Shown piece after piece: positions 23,700 to 28,338 of a stretch of 32,000 bases of DNA. The position numbers and the translations under genes are program-made. The notes under the pieces were generated by a model. The model was given only the letters and a program-made list of their open reading frames with translations, ran no database searches and had not been told where the DNA came from. The stretch covers positions 9,180 through 41,179 of the forward strand of contig JBAZRV010000007.1 of assembly GCA_041662745.1 (NCBI GenBank). The letters run 5' to 3'. Source of the stretch: Patescibacteria group bacterium. Its GTDB lineage: Bacteria > Patescibacteriota > Patescibacteriia > 2-01-FULL-39-33. Numbering within the stretch: the first letter of the stretch is position 1; every line of letters begins with the position of its first letter.

Positions 23700-24800
23700 T
23701 ATTTTCCGGCTTGTTGCTTTAGGTAGGCGCCGACAAAATCATCGATTTCGCCGCCAAGCACCCGATCGGTATCGGCGGTTTCATAATCAGTGCGATGATC
23801 TTTTACCAAACGATAGGGTTGCAAAACATAAGAACGAGCTTGATTGCCCCATTGAGCTTGACGGTATTCTCCCTTAATTTTCTCCTTCTTTTCTCCGGCC
23901 GCTTCCTGATAGTACTGCAACAATTTTGATTTTAAAATCTTTAACGCCTTATTTTTATTTTGTAACTGCGATCTTTCATTCTGGCATTTAACAGTGATGC
24001 CGGTCGGCAAATGGGTCAAACGGACAGCGGAATCAGTTGTATTGACCGATTGGCCGCCATGGCCGCCGGCGCGAAAAACATCAACTTTAATATCCTCATC
24101 TTTAATTTCCACTGACTCAATTTCCTCAAGTTCGGGCAATACTTCTACTAAGGCAAAAGAAGTATGGCGCATTTTTTCTGCGTCAAACGGCGAAATGCGC
24201 ACTAATCGATGTACTCCCCCCTCAGACTTCAGCCAGCCATAAGCATAACGGCCGGTTACCTCTATGGTCGCCGATTTTATTCCAGCCTCTCCGCCGGCCG
24301 TTTCATCAATAATCTTAGCCTCAAAGCCGTGGCGCTCGCAAAAACGCAAATACATCCTTACGAGCATTTGCGCCCAGTCCATCGCATCCACTCCGCCAGT
24401 ACCGGCATGGACTGAAAGGACGGCATTCTCTTTGTCGTATTTATCAGAAAATAAAACAGCAAATTCCAAGCGGTCATATTCCGCTTGCAATTGCTGTAAC
24501 TTAGCTGTTAGCTCGAATTGATGGGCTTCCAGTTCGCCACTACTGTCGAAAATTTTCGACAACTCTAAAATCTCGGCTAAATTATCAGTCAACTTCTGCC
24601 AGATTCCCGCCTCCTTCTTCAAATCATCATATTGCTTGCTTACAACCTTAGCGGTTTCGGAGTCAGACCAAAAATCAGGTTTTGACATCTTGACCTCTAA
24701 TCGTTTCAATTCTTTTTCAGTTTGATCGGGGTCAAAGTAACCTCCAGGTGGCGGCTACCTTGTCTTGCAGCTCTTTAATTTTTAGTAACAAGTCGTTCAT
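23699..24800 (-). CDS. prfB: Peptide chain release factor 2, requiring programmed +1 frameshift
   Basis: Frame 0 from ATG 24800 gives MNDLLLKIKELQDKVAATWRLL, then TGA at 24734-24732. The site is GGAGG-TTA-CTT-TGA-C. The +1 frame continues DPDQTEKELKRLEVKMSKPDFW...SPF...GGQ to stop 23699, 366 aa in total. Confidence 0.93.
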
Positions 24801-24804
24801 AAAA

Positions 24805-25044
24805 TTAGGCTATGACCATGCCCAAGATTTTAAAATAATTTTCGTAATCTTTCATAATTGTCGGCAAGTATAAGGCGGCCCAAAGAGCCGGGGCGATCAC
24901 CATAATAATCCAAATGATCGACCAAACCGTTCGCCACATCATATAACGACGGACCCTTTTAATGTCTTCGCGCAGTTCCAAAGTCGCCGCCAAATTTTGT
25001 TGCAATAATTCCAACAATAAATCCTTGGGTTTTTCTTCAACCAT
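24805..25044 (-). CDS. Hypothetical small membrane protein (79 aa)
   Basis: ORF with a hydrophobic core TVWSIIWIIMVIAPALWAALYL, tightly packed between nrdG and prfB. No homolog recognised. Confidence 0.5.
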   Translation of the reverse strand: MVEEKPKDLLLELLQQNLAATLELREDIKRVRRYMMWRTVWSIIWIIMVIAPALWAALYLPTIMKDYENYFKILGMVIA

Positions 25045-25092: not shown

Positions 25093-25779
25093 TTATCTTA
25101 TAACACACTTCTTAACAAAATTTCCTGTCAACTGACGAAAAGCCTCTAACTCTTTCTTAAAAAACGGCTTACCGGAAAAATCATTGCCGGCCAAACACTT
25201 GCCATCTTGAAAATTCTGCAAATAATATAAATCAGCACCCTTGATCGCTTCCGCCATAGCCAGAATGTCCGCTCGCTTATGCCACCCTTTAACCAAAGTG
25301 CTCCGAAACTCATAAGGCAAGCCGCTAGACATCACTAGAGCAATGCTTTCGGCAATGCCATCAGGTCCAACGCCGGCATACCTTTCATATTCTTTAAGCG
25401 ATCCTTTGATATCCATGGCAACATAATCCACTAATCCCTTATCCAACAAGTTCTTAAGGACATCCGGCAATAAGCCGTTAGTATCTAACTTGATAGCATA
25501 GCCGAGTTTCTTCATTTTAGCAAGAAACTTCGTCAACCCTCTTTGCAACGTCGGCTCGCCACCGGTAATAACCAAGCCATCAAGATACTTCCTTCGCCGG
25601 GTCAAAAAATCAATGACCCGATCCTCATTATACAACTTATCAGCCGTTAACCCGGGCCTGACTAATTGCGGATTATAACAAAAAGGGCAGCGCATATTGC
25701 ACCCATAGGTGAATATGATTGCTGCCATTTTTTGCGGATAATCTAATAATGTAACCGGCTGCAAGCCACCAATCTTCAT
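25093..25779 (-). CDS. nrdG: Anaerobic ribonucleoside-triphosphate reductase activating protein (radical SAM)
   Basis: CNMRCPFCYNP (CxxxCxxC) and GGEPTL. Directly downstream of the nrdD pieces. Confidence 0.88.
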   Translation of the reverse strand: MKIGGLQPVTLLDYPQKMAAIIFTYGCNMRCPFCYNPQLVRPGLTADKLYNEDRVIDFLTRRRKYLDGLVITGGEPTLQRGLTKFLAKMKKLGYAIKLDTNGLLPDVLKNLLDKGLVDYVAMDIKGSLKEYERYAGVGPDGIAESIALVMSSGLPYEFRSTLVKGWHKRADILAMAEAIKGADLYYLQNFQDGKCLAGNDFSGKPFFKKELEAFRQLTGNFVKKCVIR

Positions 25780-25796
25780 AATAAAAATAGAACGCC

Positions 25797-25967
25797 TTAA
25801 ACCGGCAACTCCTCCGCGGAACAGCTTCGGCAGTCATCAAAAGTCTTGCGATCAGTGAATTCCGATTGTTTGCCCGGATTCCATTGATCAACCGGCCTGA
25901 TGTAGCCAACGACGCGAGAGTAAACTTCGCAGGGTTGTCTTAAAATTTCTTTGTTATCACCTTCCAT
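25797..25967 (-). CDS. Stand-alone NrdD glycyl-radical peptide (56 aa; not in the ORF track)
   Basis: My translation is MEGDNKEILRQPCEVYSRVVGYIRPVDQWNPGKQSEFTDRKTFDDCRSCSAEELPV. RVVGY plus WNxGKxxEFxxR is the class III RNR glycyl-radical signature. The tracked ORF 25673..25909 is in the wrong frame. Confidence 0.8.
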   Translation of the reverse strand: MEGDNKEILRQPCEVYSRVVGYIRPVDQWNPGKQSEFTDRKTFDDCRSCSAEELPV

Positions 25968-26034
25968 ACTATTTTAAATTAGTTAATAATTTAAAATTAA
26001 CGAACGAAACCACAACCATTAATCCTCAACCAAA

Positions 26035-28083
26035 TCATAAAGGCAACTTTTCTTTCTGCTCCCTGATATAACCGACTTCATCATCGCATATCGGACAATA
26101 ACGATGTTCACCGGGTAAATAGCCGTGCTTGGGGCAAATAGAGAAAGTCGGCGTCAAAGTATAATAGGGCAGATGAAAACTCTCGGCAACTTTCTTTACT
26201 AAATTTTTAGTGCTTTCAATATCGGGCATCTTCTCTCCCAAAAAAATGTGAACGACAGTACCGCCGGTATATTTTATTTGCAGACTATCCTGCTTCTCCA
26301 AAACATCAAAAATATCGGTAGAATAATTAACTGGAAAATGACTTGAATTAGTGTAATAAGGCGCTGCCCCGCGTTCTTTATATTGCCCTTCATTGGCGAC
26401 TAAAATATCAGGATAAAGCTCTTTATCTCTCTTAGCAAAACGATAAGTCGCTCCCTCGGCCGGCGTGGCCTCTAAATTATATAACTGATCATCCTCCTCT
26501 TGAAATGTGGCTAATCGCTGTAACATGAAATCCATCATTTTACTGGCTAATTCTCCCCCTTCTTTGGAGCTCAGAGGCTTGCCCAAAAAATTTAAAACTG
26601 CTTCGTTCATGCCGTTAATACCCACAGTATTGAAATGATTACGCCAATACTGACCGAAACGCTCCTTAATATCATCTAAAAAATAGCGGGAGTAGGGATA
26701 CAAACCCATTTCAGTAAAATTTTCCAAGATTACCCTTTTTAATTTCAATGATTGGCGGGCCAAATCCATTACCTGGGCTAAACGCGAAAAAAGCATTTCT
26801 TCATTGCCCTTTGATAAATAGCCGATGCGAGGCAAATTAACCGTCACCACGCCCACCGAACCGGTTAAGGGGTTGGCGGCAAACATACCGCCGCCGCGCT
26901 TGCGCAGTTCGCGGTTATCCAAACGCAACCGGCAACACATGGAGCGGGCATCCTCGGCCTTCATGTCCGAATTGATAAAATTAGCAAAGTACGGTATGCC
27001 ATATTTGGCGGTCATCTCCCAAATCGGATTAAGCACTTCGTTGCTCCAATTAAAGTCTTTAGAGATATTGTAAGTTGGGATGGGAAAAGTAAAAACGCGG
27101 CCGCGAGAATCGCCCTCCATCATCACTTCGGCAAAAGCACGATTAATCAAATCCATTTCCCGCTGGAATTCCTTATAAGTCTCACGTTGCGGAATGCCGC
27201 CGATCAAAACCGGTTCATTGGCCAAGGTTGAGGGACAAACCAAATCAAAAGTTAAATTAGTAAACGGCGTTTGAAACCCTACCCGAGTCGGTACATTCAT
27301 ATTAAACACAAACTCTTGCATGGACTGCTTAACTTGATTATACTCCAATCCCTCATAGCGGATAAAGGGGGCTAGCAGGGTGTCAAAATTGGCAAAGGCT
27401 TGGGCGCCGGCCGCCTCTCCTTGCAAAGTATAAAAAAAGTTAACAACCTGCCCCAAAGCCACACGGAAACGTTTAGGCGGCTTGCTCTGCACCTTGCCTT
27501 CCACGCCGCCAAAACCCAATCGTAATAAAGCCTGCAAATCCCAACCGCAACAATAAACGGCCAAAAGCTGAAGGTCATGAATATGCATCGTACCGTCATT
27601 ATGAGCATTTCTAATTTCCGGCGGATAAATCTTATTAAGCCAATAATGGGAAGAGACTGCCGAAGCCACATGATTGTTCAATCCCTGCAAAGAATAAGCC
27701 ATGTTGGCATTTTCCTTGACGCGCCAATCAATCTTGTTCAAATAACCCTCAATAATATCATTGGAATTAAGCAACTTTTTTAGTTCGCGCAAACGGGAGT
27801 GTTGTTCGCGATAAATAATATAAGCCTTAGCCGCCTTGACCAAATCATCCTTAATCAAAACTTCTTCTACAACATCCTGTATTTCTTCAATTGCCGGTAT
27901 GGACCGCGGATGGAACTTGCCATTAATGATATGCACTACTTTATCGGATAGAACCTGCGTCAAGTCTTGGTCGTCGCGTCCCACTGCTACTAACACTTTA
28001 TATAAAGCGGCGGTAATTTTTTTCTGATCAAAGTCAGCGATGTCGCCATTGCGCTTCCTTACTTGTTTAATCTGCGTTTCCAT
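26035..28083 (-). CDS. nrdD: Anaerobic (class III) ribonucleoside-triphosphate reductase, large piece lacking the glycyl-radical loop
   Basis: N-terminal ATP-cone (KRNGDIADFDQKKI), a conserved barrel, and a C-terminal CPKHG...CPIC Zn site. Ends EVGYIREQKEKLPL* before any RVxGY motif. Confidence 0.9.
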   Translation of the reverse strand: METQIKQVRKRNGDIADFDQKKITAALYKVLVAVGRDDQDLTQVLSDKVVHIINGKFHPRSIPAIEEIQDVVEEVLIKDDLVKAAKAYIIYREQHSRLRELKKLLNSNDIIEGYLNKIDWRVKENANMAYSLQGLNNHVASAVSSHYWLNKIYPPEIRNAHNDGTMHIHDLQLLAVYCCGWDLQALLRLGFGGVEGKVQSKPPKRFRVALGQVVNFFYTLQGEAAGAQAFANFDTLLAPFIRYEGLEYNQVKQSMQEFVFNMNVPTRVGFQTPFTNLTFDLVCPSTLANEPVLIGGIPQRETYKEFQREMDLINRAFAEVMMEGDSRGRVFTFPIPTYNISKDFNWSNEVLNPIWEMTAKYGIPYFANFINSDMKAEDARSMCCRLRLDNRELRKRGGGMFAANPLTGSVGVVTVNLPRIGYLSKGNEEMLFSRLAQVMDLARQSLKLKRVILENFTEMGLYPYSRYFLDDIKERFGQYWRNHFNTVGINGMNEAVLNFLGKPLSSKEGGELASKMMDFMLQRLATFQEEDDQLYNLEATPAEGATYRFAKRDKELYPDILVANEGQYKERGAAPYYTNSSHFPVNYSTDIFDVLEKQDSLQIKYTGGTVVHIFLGEKMPDIESTKNLVKKVAESFHLPYYTLTPTFSICPKHGYLPGEHRYCPICDDEVGYIREQKEKLPL

Positions 28084-28176: not shown

Positions 28177-28205
28177 ATTATACCTTCAGTCAACAGGTGT
28201 GTCAA
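28177..28205 (-). promoter_or_regulatory. Consensus promoter for nrdD (TTGACA-17 nt-TATAAT)
   Basis: Minus strand has TTGACA (28205-28200), a 17-nt spacer, then TATAAT (28182-28177), about 90 nt upstream of the nrdD ATG. Confidence 0.65.
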
Positions 28206-28239: not shown

Positions 28240-28270
28240 AAAAAAAATCCAGCCTTATCCACAGGCCGGA
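28240..28270 (-). terminator. Intrinsic terminator after ftsZ
   Basis: Minus strand reads TCCGGCC-TGTGGATAA-GGCTGGA (7 bp including one G-U) followed by T8. Confidence 0.75.
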
Positions 28271-28338
28271 TTTATAAAAAATATTTTATATTTTTTGTCT
28301 ATTTTTAAGCCCCTAAAATGTTACCTAAATTTAGACGA

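What the first reader, a model, noticed from the sequence alone, without database searches (positions are those of the whole stretch)
25797..28083. Split class III ribonucleotide reductase: the glycyl-radical motif is on a separate, untracked 56-codon ORF
The nrdD ORF (682 aa) ends ...YCPICDDEVGYIREQKEKLPL*. That is right after the C-terminal zinc site and before the glycyl-radical loop that every class III RNR needs. Sixty-seven nt downstream, in another frame, a 56-codon ORF (25967-25797, below the 60-aa track cutoff) encodes MEGDNKEILRQPCEVYSRVVGYIRPVDQWNPGKQSEFTDRKTFDDCRSCSAEELPV. This is a textbook NrdD radical domain (RVxGY, WNxGKxxEF). nrdG follows. If this is real, the radical-bearing peptide is a separate polypeptide working in trans, comparable in logic to GrcA/YfiD as a spare part for pyruvate formate-lyase. 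I am not aware of a described split NrdD of this kind.
Basis: partly seen in the sequence, partly recalled or inferred. Interest (0 to 1): 0.75.

Follow-up and report, generated by a model that had tools for sequence, protein, structure and literature searches.

The report
Two-gene anaerobic ribonucleotide reductase
In this candidate-phyla-radiation bacterium, and in a whole deep clade of its relatives, the oxygen-sensitive enzyme that makes DNA building blocks keeps its radical-carrying glycine loop on a separate 56-residue protein, an arrangement I found annotated in databases but not described in the papers I could search.

Summary
nrdD (26035-28083, minus strand, 682 aa) stops just after its zinc site. 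After a 67-nt gap, in another frame, a 56-codon ORF (25797-25967) encodes the glycyl-radical loop. nrdG follows.

It is not an artefact or a pseudogene:
- Two other independent assemblies carry the same split, and all their differences are synonymous.
- 50 species-level genomes of Patescibacteria show it (Buchananbacteria, Dojkabacteria/WS6, Falkowbacteria, CPR2, Microgenomates).
- The 46 large subunits placed in a tree form one clade, separate from fused relatives.
- The small ORF is under strong purifying selection.

It is not recoding into one chain. The gap runs from 4 to 346 nt, uses all three frame offsets and all three stop codons, and is not conserved. The window gap has stops in every frame. 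Some lineages have a canonical ribosome-binding site before the small ORF.

Best explanation: an obligate two-chain class III ribonucleotide reductase. NrdG activates the small peptide, which supplies the radical to the barrel in trans. This step is inferred, not shown.

Two related findings: some genomes hold a second copy of the peptide gene inside an Fe-S assembly operon, and fused-NrdD relatives carry an extra standalone radical domain between nrdD and nrdG. No paper found describes either. A 2026 review says spare parts are known only for formate lyases.

The parts
28177..28205 (-). Promoter-like site for the operon (TTGACA-17-TATAAT, 12 of 12 matches), about 94 nt upstream of the nrdD start
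   Evidence: This is a consensus match only. A terminator-like hairpin at 28273..28245 lies after ftsZ, just upstream.
26035..28083 (-). nrdD large subunit, 682 aa: ATP-cone, catalytic barrel and zinc site, with no glycyl-radical domain
   Evidence: Pfam NRDD 1-533/562 and ATP-cone. NF006126 at 1012 bits covering 2-653/684. Identical protein found in an ENA 62-kb contig.
27796..28065 (-). ATP-cone domain (residues 7-96 of the large subunit)
   Evidence: Pfam PF03477, E 1.2e-18
26932..26937 (-). Codons for Cys383-Cys384 in SMCCRLRL, the finger-loop cysteines that would receive the radical
   Evidence: Invariant columns C383 and C384 in alignments with 101 fused relatives. Their role is inferred from class III RNR structures and literature (for the double-Cys finger-loop class).
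26086..26136 (-). Zinc-site codons Cys650, His653, Cys663 and Cys666 (CPKH...CPIC), all in the large subunit
   Evidence: Invariant columns C650, H653, C663 and C666. They align to the CPxC of P. copri NrdD.
26038..26085 (-). C-terminal tail DDEVGYIREQKEKLPL. It is specific to the split clade (motif CDxE[IVS]G[YF]...) and absent from fused relatives.
   Evidence: Modelled as a helix at 664-679 with moderate confidence. A role as a docking element is speculation.
25968..26034 (-). 67-nt intercistronic gap, AT-rich, with stop codons in all three frames. It contains a perfect 11-bp AT hairpin at 25971-25997.
   Evidence: Identical in three assemblies but not conserved in length or sequence among relatives.
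25797..25967 (-). Small subunit gene, 56 aa: glycyl-radical domain (RVVGY, WNPGKQSEF) with the conserved N-terminus MEGDNKE and a C-terminal CRSC
   Evidence: Pfam NRDD 531-562/562, E 6.7e-10. 120 standalone homologues. Codon-position identities 0.84/0.90/0.42.
25905..25907 (-). GGC codon of Gly21 in RVVGY, the predicted glycyl-radical site
   Evidence: Read directly. Invariant G in all 37 small proteins and in 101 fused relatives (column G703).
25093..25779 (-). nrdG, radical-SAM activating enzyme, 228 aa, starting 17 nt after the small ORF
   Evidence: TIGR02495 NrdG2 at 197 bits. Pfam Radical_SAM. In relatives nrdG usually starts 0-9 nt after the small ORF stop.

Best explanation
This is a genuine, anciently fixed two-gene class III (anaerobic) ribonucleotide reductase. 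The operon nrdD-large, nrdD-small, nrdG is transcribed from one promoter.

The 682-aa chain carries the ATP-cone, the catalytic barrel with its finger-loop cysteines, and the complete zinc site (Cys, His, Cys, Cys). It has no glycine-radical loop.

The 56-aa chain is translated from its own ATG. It is the glycyl-radical domain, which in ordinary NrdD is the last 35-40 residues of the same polypeptide.

Inferred mechanism:
- NrdG uses S-adenosylmethionine to abstract a hydrogen from Gly21 of the small chain.
- The small chain sits with its Gly loop inside the barrel next to Cys383/384.
- It generates the thiyl radical that starts nucleotide reduction.

Because oxygen cleaves a glycyl-radical protein at the glycine, a detachable 56-residue radical carrier lets the cell replace only the small piece. 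Some relatives carry a second copy of the small gene inside an Rrf2/IscU/Nfu/cysteine-desulfurase operon, which fits such a replacement supply.

Shown: the split, its conservation, purifying selection on both pieces, and independent start signals. Inferred: assembly of the two chains, activation of the free or bound peptide by NrdG, and the repair advantage.
For: Reality of the split:
- It is identical in a JGI contig (96.6% nt identity overall) and an ENA 62-kb contig. Every difference in either ORF is synonymous.

Breadth:
- The best 120 homologues of the small ORF are all 43-64 aa standalone proteins, some on contigs up to 729 kb.
- A profile search of 1.84 billion cluster representatives gave a best 150 of 45-166 aa each. 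Of the 147 not already fetched, 138 start with Met.
- The best 120 homologues of the large ORF all end at the same place.

Single old origin:
- In a neighbour-joining tree of a 300-aa core that excludes the junction, 46 split proteins form one clade apart from 29 fused ones.
- Core identity within the clade falls to 51%.

Selection:
- Over 28 core codons of the small ORF in 51 loci, nucleotide identity at codon positions 1/2/3 is 0.84/0.90/0.42, with amino-acid identity 0.84.
- The catalytic Cys, zinc ligands and Gly are invariant against 101 fused relatives.

Separate translation:
- In 50 loci the gap is 4-346 nt (median 26.5).
- Frame offsets are 20/16/14 and stops are TAA/TAG/TGA at 41/5/4.
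- Six loci have SD-like motifs at normal spacing, e.g. AGGAGGGTATT-ATG in L056.
- In this window most genes, including nrdD itself, lack an SD. The small ORF's AT-rich start context is therefore normal.
- One relative has another small ORF inside a 346-nt gap.

Structure:
- The AF2 model of the concatenated chains resembles solved class III RNRs.
- The glycine hairpin has pLDDT 68-80, and the junction residues 682-689 are disordered.

Spare supply:
- A paralogous small gene sits in an Fe-S assembly operon in several relatives. One of these MAGs also has a normal split locus.
Against: - There is no experimental evidence that the two chains associate or that the peptide is activated.
- The first AF2 run, with half the alignment lacking the glycine domain, left residues 674-738 at pLDDT below 35.
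- The second run is essentially homology modelling. I had no coordinates to measure the Gly-Cys distance.
- I could not check whether these genomes also carry a fused nrdD or another RNR class.
- The repair-advantage idea is a plausible story, not a test.
- The tree is a simple midpoint-rooted NJ tree without bootstrap support.
Confidence: 0.8

Rival explanations
1. Sequencing or assembly indel, or a decaying nrdD pseudogene whose function is supplied by another RNR.
For: A single-window view cannot exclude it. The two ORFs are in different frames. I could not survey the rest of the genome.
Against: - The split is the same in three independent assemblies, with only synonymous differences.
- 50 species genomes and hundreds of metagenome proteins share it.
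- Third-codon-position identity of 0.42 against amino-acid identity of 0.84 shows selection on the small ORF.
- No single indel can fuse the frames, because the gap has stops in all frames.
Confidence: 0.02
2. Recoding: the gap is removed or skipped by a small intron, ribosomal frameshift or translational bypass as in T4 gene 60, so that one fused NrdD is made.
For: - The 136-nt junction region is 100% identical among the three close strains, although flanking coding DNA differs.
- A perfect AT hairpin precedes the small ORF.
- 8 of 19 longer gaps in relatives fold significantly better than shuffles.
- T4 nrdD is known to hold a group I intron (my own knowledge).
Against: - Gap length is 4-346 nt with all frame offsets, all stop codons and no sequence conservation.
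- 31 of 50 gaps are under 30 nt.
- No Rfam family, introns included, reaches threshold in the window.
- The Met start and N-terminus of the small ORF are conserved (MEG.., or MTKKEK in Dojkabacteria), with variable third codon positions.
- Some lineages have an SD before the small ORF.
Confidence: 0.04
3. Protein-level joining: the two products are ligated after translation, for example by a split intein.
For: Inteins do occur in NrdD of close relatives. Their large ORFs are 1003-1028 aa, and Pfam intein and LAGLIDADG domains appear in fused relatives.
Against: - The extra residues are only about 13-17 aa on the large chain and about 9 aa on the small chain, far too short for split-intein halves.
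- No intein motifs appear at the junction, which reads CPIC|DDEV... and ...LRQP|C.
- No Pfam intein hit was found in either window ORF.
Confidence: 0.01
4. The large subunit works without this peptide, or has a non-RNR role, and the small ORF is only an optional regulator or spare.
For: - Standalone radical-domain genes also occur next to fused, self-sufficient nrdD genes (L078 and seven other loci).
- They also occur away from nrdD, in Fe-S operons.
- So the peptide family can be optional elsewhere.
Against: - The large ORF has no glycine-radical motif at all, yet it retains every invariant catalytic and zinc residue of NrdD and sits next to nrdG.
- Class III RNR chemistry requires the glycyl radical (established knowledge; PMC13450708).
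- In the nrdD-linked split loci where nrdG was detected, the small ORF lies between nrdD and nrdG.
Confidence: 0.05

Closest known systems
Canonical class III ribonucleotide reductase NrdD with activase NrdG (T4, E. coli, T. maritima, P. copri, S. thermophilus structures)
   Same: - Same Pfam and NCBIfam families, ATP-cone, finger-loop cysteines and zinc site.
- Same RVxGY glycine motif and adjacent NrdG.
- The model superposes on 9d3x, 8p2c, 4u3e and 1hk8.
- Fused Patescibacteria NrdDs are 53-64% identical in the core.
   Different: The glycyl-radical domain is a separate gene product. The large chain has an added tail of about 16 residues, and the small chain an added N-terminus of about 9 residues.
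GrcA/YfiD (and T4 Y06I), the autonomous glycyl-radical 'spare part' of pyruvate formate-lyase
   Same: It is a small standalone protein consisting essentially of a glycyl-radical domain. It is activated by the cognate radical-SAM activase and serves a large barrel in trans (PMC8683613, PMC13450708).
   Different: - GrcA is optional and rescues an enzyme that normally has its own glycine. Here the peptide is the only glycine source.
- There is no sequence-family relationship. The small ORF hits Pfam NRDD only, not the PFL-type Gly_radical family.
- It is 56 aa, against 127 aa for GrcA.
Split class II RNR NrdJa/NrdJb (Pseudomonas aeruginosa)
   Same: It is an RNR catalytic subunit encoded as two consecutive genes, with a C-terminal zinc-finger or turnover module on the second chain (PMC9669993).
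   Different: It is a different RNR class (B12-dependent). The split-off part there is a reductant-shuttling domain, not the radical-harbouring element.
Genes-in-pieces NrdA of Aeromonas phage Aeh1, split by the homing endonuclease gene mobE
   Same: It is an RNR large subunit that functions as two polypeptides (my own knowledge, not checked here).
   Different: That split is recent, is caused by a mobile endonuclease gene still present in the gap, and is phage-specific. Here no mobile gene lies in the gap and the split is fixed across a deep bacterial clade.

Membership tests
Class III RNR catalytic subunit (NrdD) | NRDD catalytic domain above the curated threshold | tested here: met
   Pfam PF13597 at 605 bits (cut-off 26). 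NF006126 at 1012 bits (cut-off 548).
Class III RNR catalytic subunit (NrdD) | Finger-loop cysteine(s) and upper-barrel cysteine conserved | tested here: met
   C178, C383 and C384 are invariant with 101 fused relatives.
Class III RNR catalytic subunit (NrdD) | C-terminal zinc-binding site | tested here: met
   CPKH...CPIC (Cys650, His653, Cys663, Cys666) are invariant. One ligand is His rather than Cys, as in the fused Patescibacteria relatives.
Class III RNR catalytic subunit (NrdD) | Glycyl-radical motif (RVxGY) at the C-terminus of the same polypeptide | tested here: not met
   The large ORF ends at profile position 533/562. The motif lies on the separate 56-aa ORF.
Class III RNR catalytic subunit (NrdD) | Cognate radical-SAM activase NrdG encoded nearby | tested here: met
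   TIGR02495 NrdG2 at 197 bits, 17 nt downstream of the small ORF.
Class III RNR catalytic subunit (NrdD) | Glycyl radical formation and NTP reduction | not testable with these tools
   Needs EPR and an activity assay.
GrcA/YfiD autonomous glycyl radical cofactor | Sequence membership in the PFL-type Gly_radical family | tested here: not met
   The Pfam scan of the small ORF returns only NRDD. NCBIfam returns only NrdD models.
GrcA/YfiD autonomous glycyl radical cofactor | Partner enzyme has its own glycine domain, which the small protein replaces after oxygen cleavage | tested here: not met
   The large ORF has no glycine domain. This feature is met instead by the 92-aa ORFs beside fused nrdD in L078 and others.
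GrcA/YfiD autonomous glycyl radical cofactor | Standalone small protein carrying the radical glycine | tested here: met
   56 aa with its own ATG and stop, and conserved as a standalone protein.
Intron, bypass or frameshift recoding element | Conserved intervening sequence or structure, and fixed frame relation between the two ORFs | tested here: not met
   Gap 4-346 nt, all frame offsets, no conservation. No Rfam hit.
Split intein | Intein N- and C-fragments flanking the junction | tested here: not met
   Only 13-17 and about 9 extra residues, and no intein Pfam hit.

The most novel reading that the evidence does not exclude
Many Patescibacteria use the glycyl-radical domain of class III RNR as an exchangeable protein cofactor, a radical cartridge. 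It exists in three forms:
- An obligate small subunit, as in this window.
- A stress-linked extra copy co-transcribed with IscR/IscU/Nfu/IscS, which would re-arm the enzyme after oxygen damage.
- A zinc-ribbon-bearing spare beside self-sufficient fused NrdD, including in the cultured Minisyncoccus archaeiphilus.

This would extend the GrcA spare-part principle from formate lyases to ribonucleotide reductase. It would also show that the radical domain can be activated off the enzyme and delivered in trans.
Probability: 0.4. Interest if true: 0.85.

Novelty: new variant of a known kind. Interest (0 to 1): 0.72.

Why it matters
All characterised glycyl-radical enzymes carry the radical glycine on the catalytic polypeptide. 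The only known standalone radical domains (GrcA/YfiD and T4 Y06I) serve pyruvate formate-lyase. [quoted passage not shown]

A whole clade with an obligately two-chain NrdD would give three things:
- A natural system for studying how the radical domain leaves and re-enters the barrel and meets the activase, a long-standing mechanistic question.
- A natural minimal substrate for NrdG.
- A possible route by which tiny-genome, oxygen-exposed episymbionts keep their RNR working cheaply.

It also matters for annotation. The large ORF is currently named as a complete ribonucleoside-triphosphate reductase, and the 45-60 aa partner is easily missed by ORF-length cut-offs.

Tried and rejected
- UGA as a sense codon (code 25): reading through the TGA hits a TAG 23 codons later. 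The window also encodes RF2 with its UGA-dependent frameshift site. Rejected.
- The 'EVGYIRE' in the large-ORF tail as a degenerate duplicate of 'RVVGYIRP': fused Syntrophomonas-type relatives read CPICEAEG...CEVYSR. The DxExG is therefore more simply the ancestral linker. Across the split clade only G-[YF] is shared. Not pursued further.
- PDB sequence search with the small-ORF profile: no hit at E 0.01, because the query is too short.
- An alignment mixing full-length and 50-aa sequences misplaced the short ones and was not used.
- The AF2 run with a half-split, half-fused alignment left the radical domain unplaced.
- Rfam search of the window: nothing at gathering thresholds.
- Seven literature searches for a split or standalone class III radical domain: nothing found. 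One query was malformed.
- Gap hairpins: significant in 8 of 19 long gaps, but absent or impossible in most loci. They are not a defining part of the system.
Full report
**1. The observation**

The ORF list and the sequence confirm every detail of the finding.
- On the minus strand, a 682-aa ORF (26035..28083) ends ...FSICPKHGYLPGEHRYCPICDDEVGYIREQKEKLPL followed by TGA.
- After 67 nt, in a different frame, a 56-aa ORF (25797..25967) reads MEGDNKEILRQPCEVYSRVVGYIRPVDQWNPGKQSEFTDRKTFDDCRSCSAEELPV.
- A 228-aa ORF starts 17 nt later.

The family assignments are clear.
- Pfam places the large ORF on NRDD profile positions 1-533 of 562, plus an ATP-cone. It places the small ORF on positions 531-562 (E 6.7e-10).
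- NCBIfam NF006126 is covered at 2-653 and 649-682 of 684 by the two pieces. The third ORF is NrdG (TIGR02495, 197 bits).
- The two ORFs therefore tile one NrdD exactly, with about 23 extra residues at the junction.
- The gap has stop codons in all three frames, so no single indel or frameshift could fuse the ORFs.

**2. The split is real**

- The exact small protein is on a JGI contig from another sample, and the exact large protein is on a 62-kb ENA contig.
- The JGI contig is 96.6% identical to the window.
- Across the junction the three assemblies differ at five positions, all synonymous, in one ORF or the other.

**3. It is a conserved architecture, not a one-off**

- A search with the small ORF gave 262 hits. 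The best 120 are all 43-64 aa standalone proteins. Many carry NCBI or JGI names from Patescibacteria (Parcubacteria, Dojkabacteria, Buchananbacteria), on contigs up to 729 kb.
- A profile search of 1.84 billion cluster representatives gave 4929 hits, and the best 150 are 45-166 aa. Of the 147 not already fetched, 138 begin with Met.
- A search with the large ORF gave a best 120 of 676-705 aa, or about 1004 aa with an insert. One 734-aa entry is only an N-terminal overcall and ends ...CPICDDEIGFIREQKEQLPL.

I fetched 80 species-representative loci and parsed them.
- 50 have the window's architecture.
- About 29 have a fused NrdD that reads ...CPxC-[AVLI][IV]xQPCEVYSRVVGY.
- This places the break in the short linker between the zinc site and the glycine hairpin.

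Origin and age:
- In an NJ tree of a 300-aa core that excludes the junction, all 46 split proteins form one clade, separate from the 29 fused ones.
- They also share a derived tail motif, CDxE[IVS]G[YF].
- Core identity within the split clade falls to 51%, as low as between split and fused forms.
- The split is therefore old and has been maintained.

**4. Selection**

- Across 51 loci, the 28 core codons of the small ORF have nucleotide identity 0.84/0.90/0.42 at codon positions 1/2/3, with amino-acid identity 0.84.
- Against 101 fused relatives, these residues are invariant in the window's two pieces: the barrel cysteines (C178, C383, C384), the zinc ligands (C650, H653, C663, C666), and S-R-x-x-G-Y.

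**5. One chain or two?**

- Among the 50 split loci, the distance from the large-ORF stop to the small-ORF ATG is 4-346 nt (median 26.5).
- The frame offsets are 20/16/14, and the stops are TAA 41, TAG 5 and TGA 4.
- The gap sequences are unrelated.
- Six loci have a canonical Shine-Dalgarno sequence at normal spacing (L056 AGGAGGGTATT-ATG, L037 CCAGGAGGAGT-ATG). One locus has a 346-nt gap with its own mini-ORF.
- The small ORF's Met and N-terminus are conserved: MEG[DE]NK in the Buchananbacteria-like group and MTKKEK in Dojkabacteria. The glycine codon's third position varies.
- In the window only about 5 of 32 genes have an SD, and nrdD itself has none. The AT-rich context of the small ORF is therefore typical for this genome.
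- Rfam finds nothing in the window.

These facts exclude a conserved intron, frameshift or bypass. They point to independent translation of two polypeptides. The extra residues are far too few for a split intein.

**6. Operon context**

- A perfect TTGACA-17-TATAAT lies at 28205..28177.
- No terminator-like site separates nrdD, the small ORF and nrdG.
- In relatives nrdG usually starts 0-9 nt after the small ORF.

**7. Structure**

Sequence search maps the end of the large ORF onto the CPKC of P. copri NrdD at residue ~703 of 743.

AF2 was run on the concatenated chains.
- With a mixed alignment, the glycine domain was left unplaced.
- With 101 fused relatives, the model reached mean pLDDT 81.7.
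- In that model the tail forms a helix (664-679), the junction is disordered (682-689), and the glycine hairpin and helix (696-721) have pLDDT 68-80.
- The model matches solved class III RNRs.

This is compatible with the break lying in a tolerant surface linker. It is essentially homology modelling, and I could not measure the Gly-Cys distance.

**8. Two related discoveries**

(a) A paralogue of the small gene sits in an Fe-S assembly operon.
- In L018 and L016, and in five further metagenome contigs, a 52-56 aa paralogue (MEGNQQIDRQSCEVYSR...PVEQWNPGKQ...) lies between IscU/NifU_N and Nfu genes. A cysteine desulfurase follows, and an Rrf2-family regulator precedes them wherever the contig extends far enough upstream.
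- The MAG that holds L018 also has an ordinary split locus, L025.

(b) A standalone radical domain sits beside fused nrdD genes.
- In eight fused-NrdD loci, an ORF of about 90 aa follows nrdD. In L078, the complete genome of the cultured Minisyncoccus archaeiphilus, it lies between nrdD and nrdG.
- It has a CxxC...CxxC ribbon followed by LRNYQETEVYSRVVGYIRPV....
- In five of the eight loci (L057, L065, L074, L078, L080) the spare domain is at least as similar to its own neighbour's cis domain as to any other locus's cis domain.

Both findings show that the class III radical domain exists as an independent, selectable module. The first suggests that its supply is coupled to Fe-S repair.

**9. 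Mechanism proposed**

- The large chain provides the barrel, allostery and zinc site.
- NrdG installs the radical on Gly21 of the small chain.
- The small chain docks its loop next to Cys383/384.
- After oxygen cleavage, only the 56-residue piece needs replacing.

Everything after 'two separate, conserved gene products' is inference.

**10. Comparison with what is known**

- The parts belong to the NrdD and NrdG families.
- The defining feature 'glycine motif on the catalytic polypeptide' is not met.
- The system works like GrcA/YfiD with PFL, but it is not a member of that family and is obligate rather than optional.
- Split RNRs are known for class II (NrdJa/NrdJb) and for a phage class I enzyme. 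In neither is the radical site the separated part.
- I found no description of a split or standalone class III radical domain.
- A 2026 review states that formate lyases are the only GRE class with spare-part proteins. A 2021 paper only speculates about spares for other GREs.
- Databases do already list both ORFs under generic NrdD names.

**11. Verdict**

- Novelty: a new variant of a known kind.
- Interest: 0.72.

Noticed in passing
L078 3646-3924 (Minisyncoccus archaeiphilus PMX.108 complete genome); also L043, L047, L057, L065, L074, L076, L080: A standalone ORF of about 90 aa lies downstream of a full-length, self-sufficient nrdD (in L078, between nrdD and nrdG). It has a CxxC...CxxC zinc ribbon plus a second glycyl-radical domain (LRNYQETEVYSRVVGYIRPV...). 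It looks like a GrcA-type spare part for class III RNR. In five of the eight loci it is at least as similar to its own neighbour's cis domain as to any other locus's. Roughly 9-13 further zinc-ribbon-type clusters appear in the representative library.
   Followed up: partly
L018 3501-3659; L016 626-796; L083 2134-2304; L084-L087: An orphan paralogue of the small glycyl-radical ORF (52-56 aa) lies inside an Fe-S assembly operon. The order is Rrf2 regulator, IscU/NifU_N, radical peptide, Nfu, cysteine desulfurase, far from nrdD. The MAG that holds L018 also has a normal split nrdD locus (L025). This suggests peptide supply co-regulated with Fe-S repair.
   Followed up: partly
window 24731-24800 (minus strand): prfB (RF2) has the classical programmed +1 frameshift. 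The ATG is at 24800, followed by 22 codons, an internal GGAGG, then CTT TGA C at 24737-24731. The main frame continues to 23699. This is a known feature, and it also shows that UGA is a stop codon in this organism.
   Followed up: yes
L003, L017, L021, L023, L034, L051, L064 (split); L024, L027, L050 (fused); P0251, P0318: Several NrdD large chains are 1000-1130 aa instead of about 690-710. Precomputed Pfam domains for two fused examples include LAGLIDADG_3 and Intein_splicing, so inteins are common in NrdD of these lineages. The window's gene has none.
   Followed up: no
window 25971-25997; gaps of L010, L046, L072, L026, L005, L058, L012: Many of the longer nrdD/small-ORF spacers contain a strong hairpin (8 of 19 gaps of at least 30 nt have z below -2 against dinucleotide shuffles). 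The sequences are unrelated. The window has a perfect 11-bp AT-only hairpin ending 3 nt before the ATG. Possible roles are an intercistronic mRNA stabiliser, a processing site or small palindromic insertions. The function is unknown.
   Followed up: partly
L052 and L053, spacer between nrdD stop and small ORF (185-199 nt): Two Falkowbacteria/Parcubacteria loci share a long spacer conserved between them. It has a TGCTATAAT promoter-like box, a G+C-rich stem (AACCCCAAG...GGGGGTAAGTT) and a second hairpin just before an SD-like GGTGGGA. It may be a separate promoter or a regulatory RNA for the small ORF and nrdG.
   Followed up: no
L003 spacer (346 nt between nrdD stop and small ORF): The spacer holds an additional small ORF with a hydrophobic, transmembrane-like sequence (...LSTHLFISLAIGLILIAALFLL...). 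The two nrdD pieces can therefore be separated by another gene.
   Followed up: no
window 25797-25830 (C-terminus of small ORF); P0001-P0120: The small subunit often ends in a Cys pair (here DDCRSCS). 34 of 119 homologues have C-x(0-2)-C after the GKxxEFxxR motif, and some fused relatives do too. This may be a redox-shuttle tail like those of class I and II RNRs. The finger loop has the double-Cys motif (SMCCRLRL).
   Followed up: no
window, all gene starts: Only about 5 of 32 predicted genes have a recognisable Shine-Dalgarno motif. Most start after AT-rich sequence, which suggests largely SD-independent initiation in this organism.
   Followed up: partly
window 24805-25044 (minus strand): A 79-aa ORF with a predicted membrane segment lies directly downstream of nrdG. 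It is called as a gene in the ENA contig and has no Pfam or NCBIfam hit. It is possibly part of the operon.
   Followed up: no
L030 (record titled Candidatus Woesearchaeota archaeon); L006 (Marinamargulisbacteria); several records titled uncultured Gammaproteobacteria or Saccharibacteria: Split loci also occur in MAGs labelled as non-Patescibacteria, including a DPANN archaeon (gap of only 4 nt). This could reflect mis-binning, automatic labels, or horizontal transfer of the split operon.
   Followed up: no
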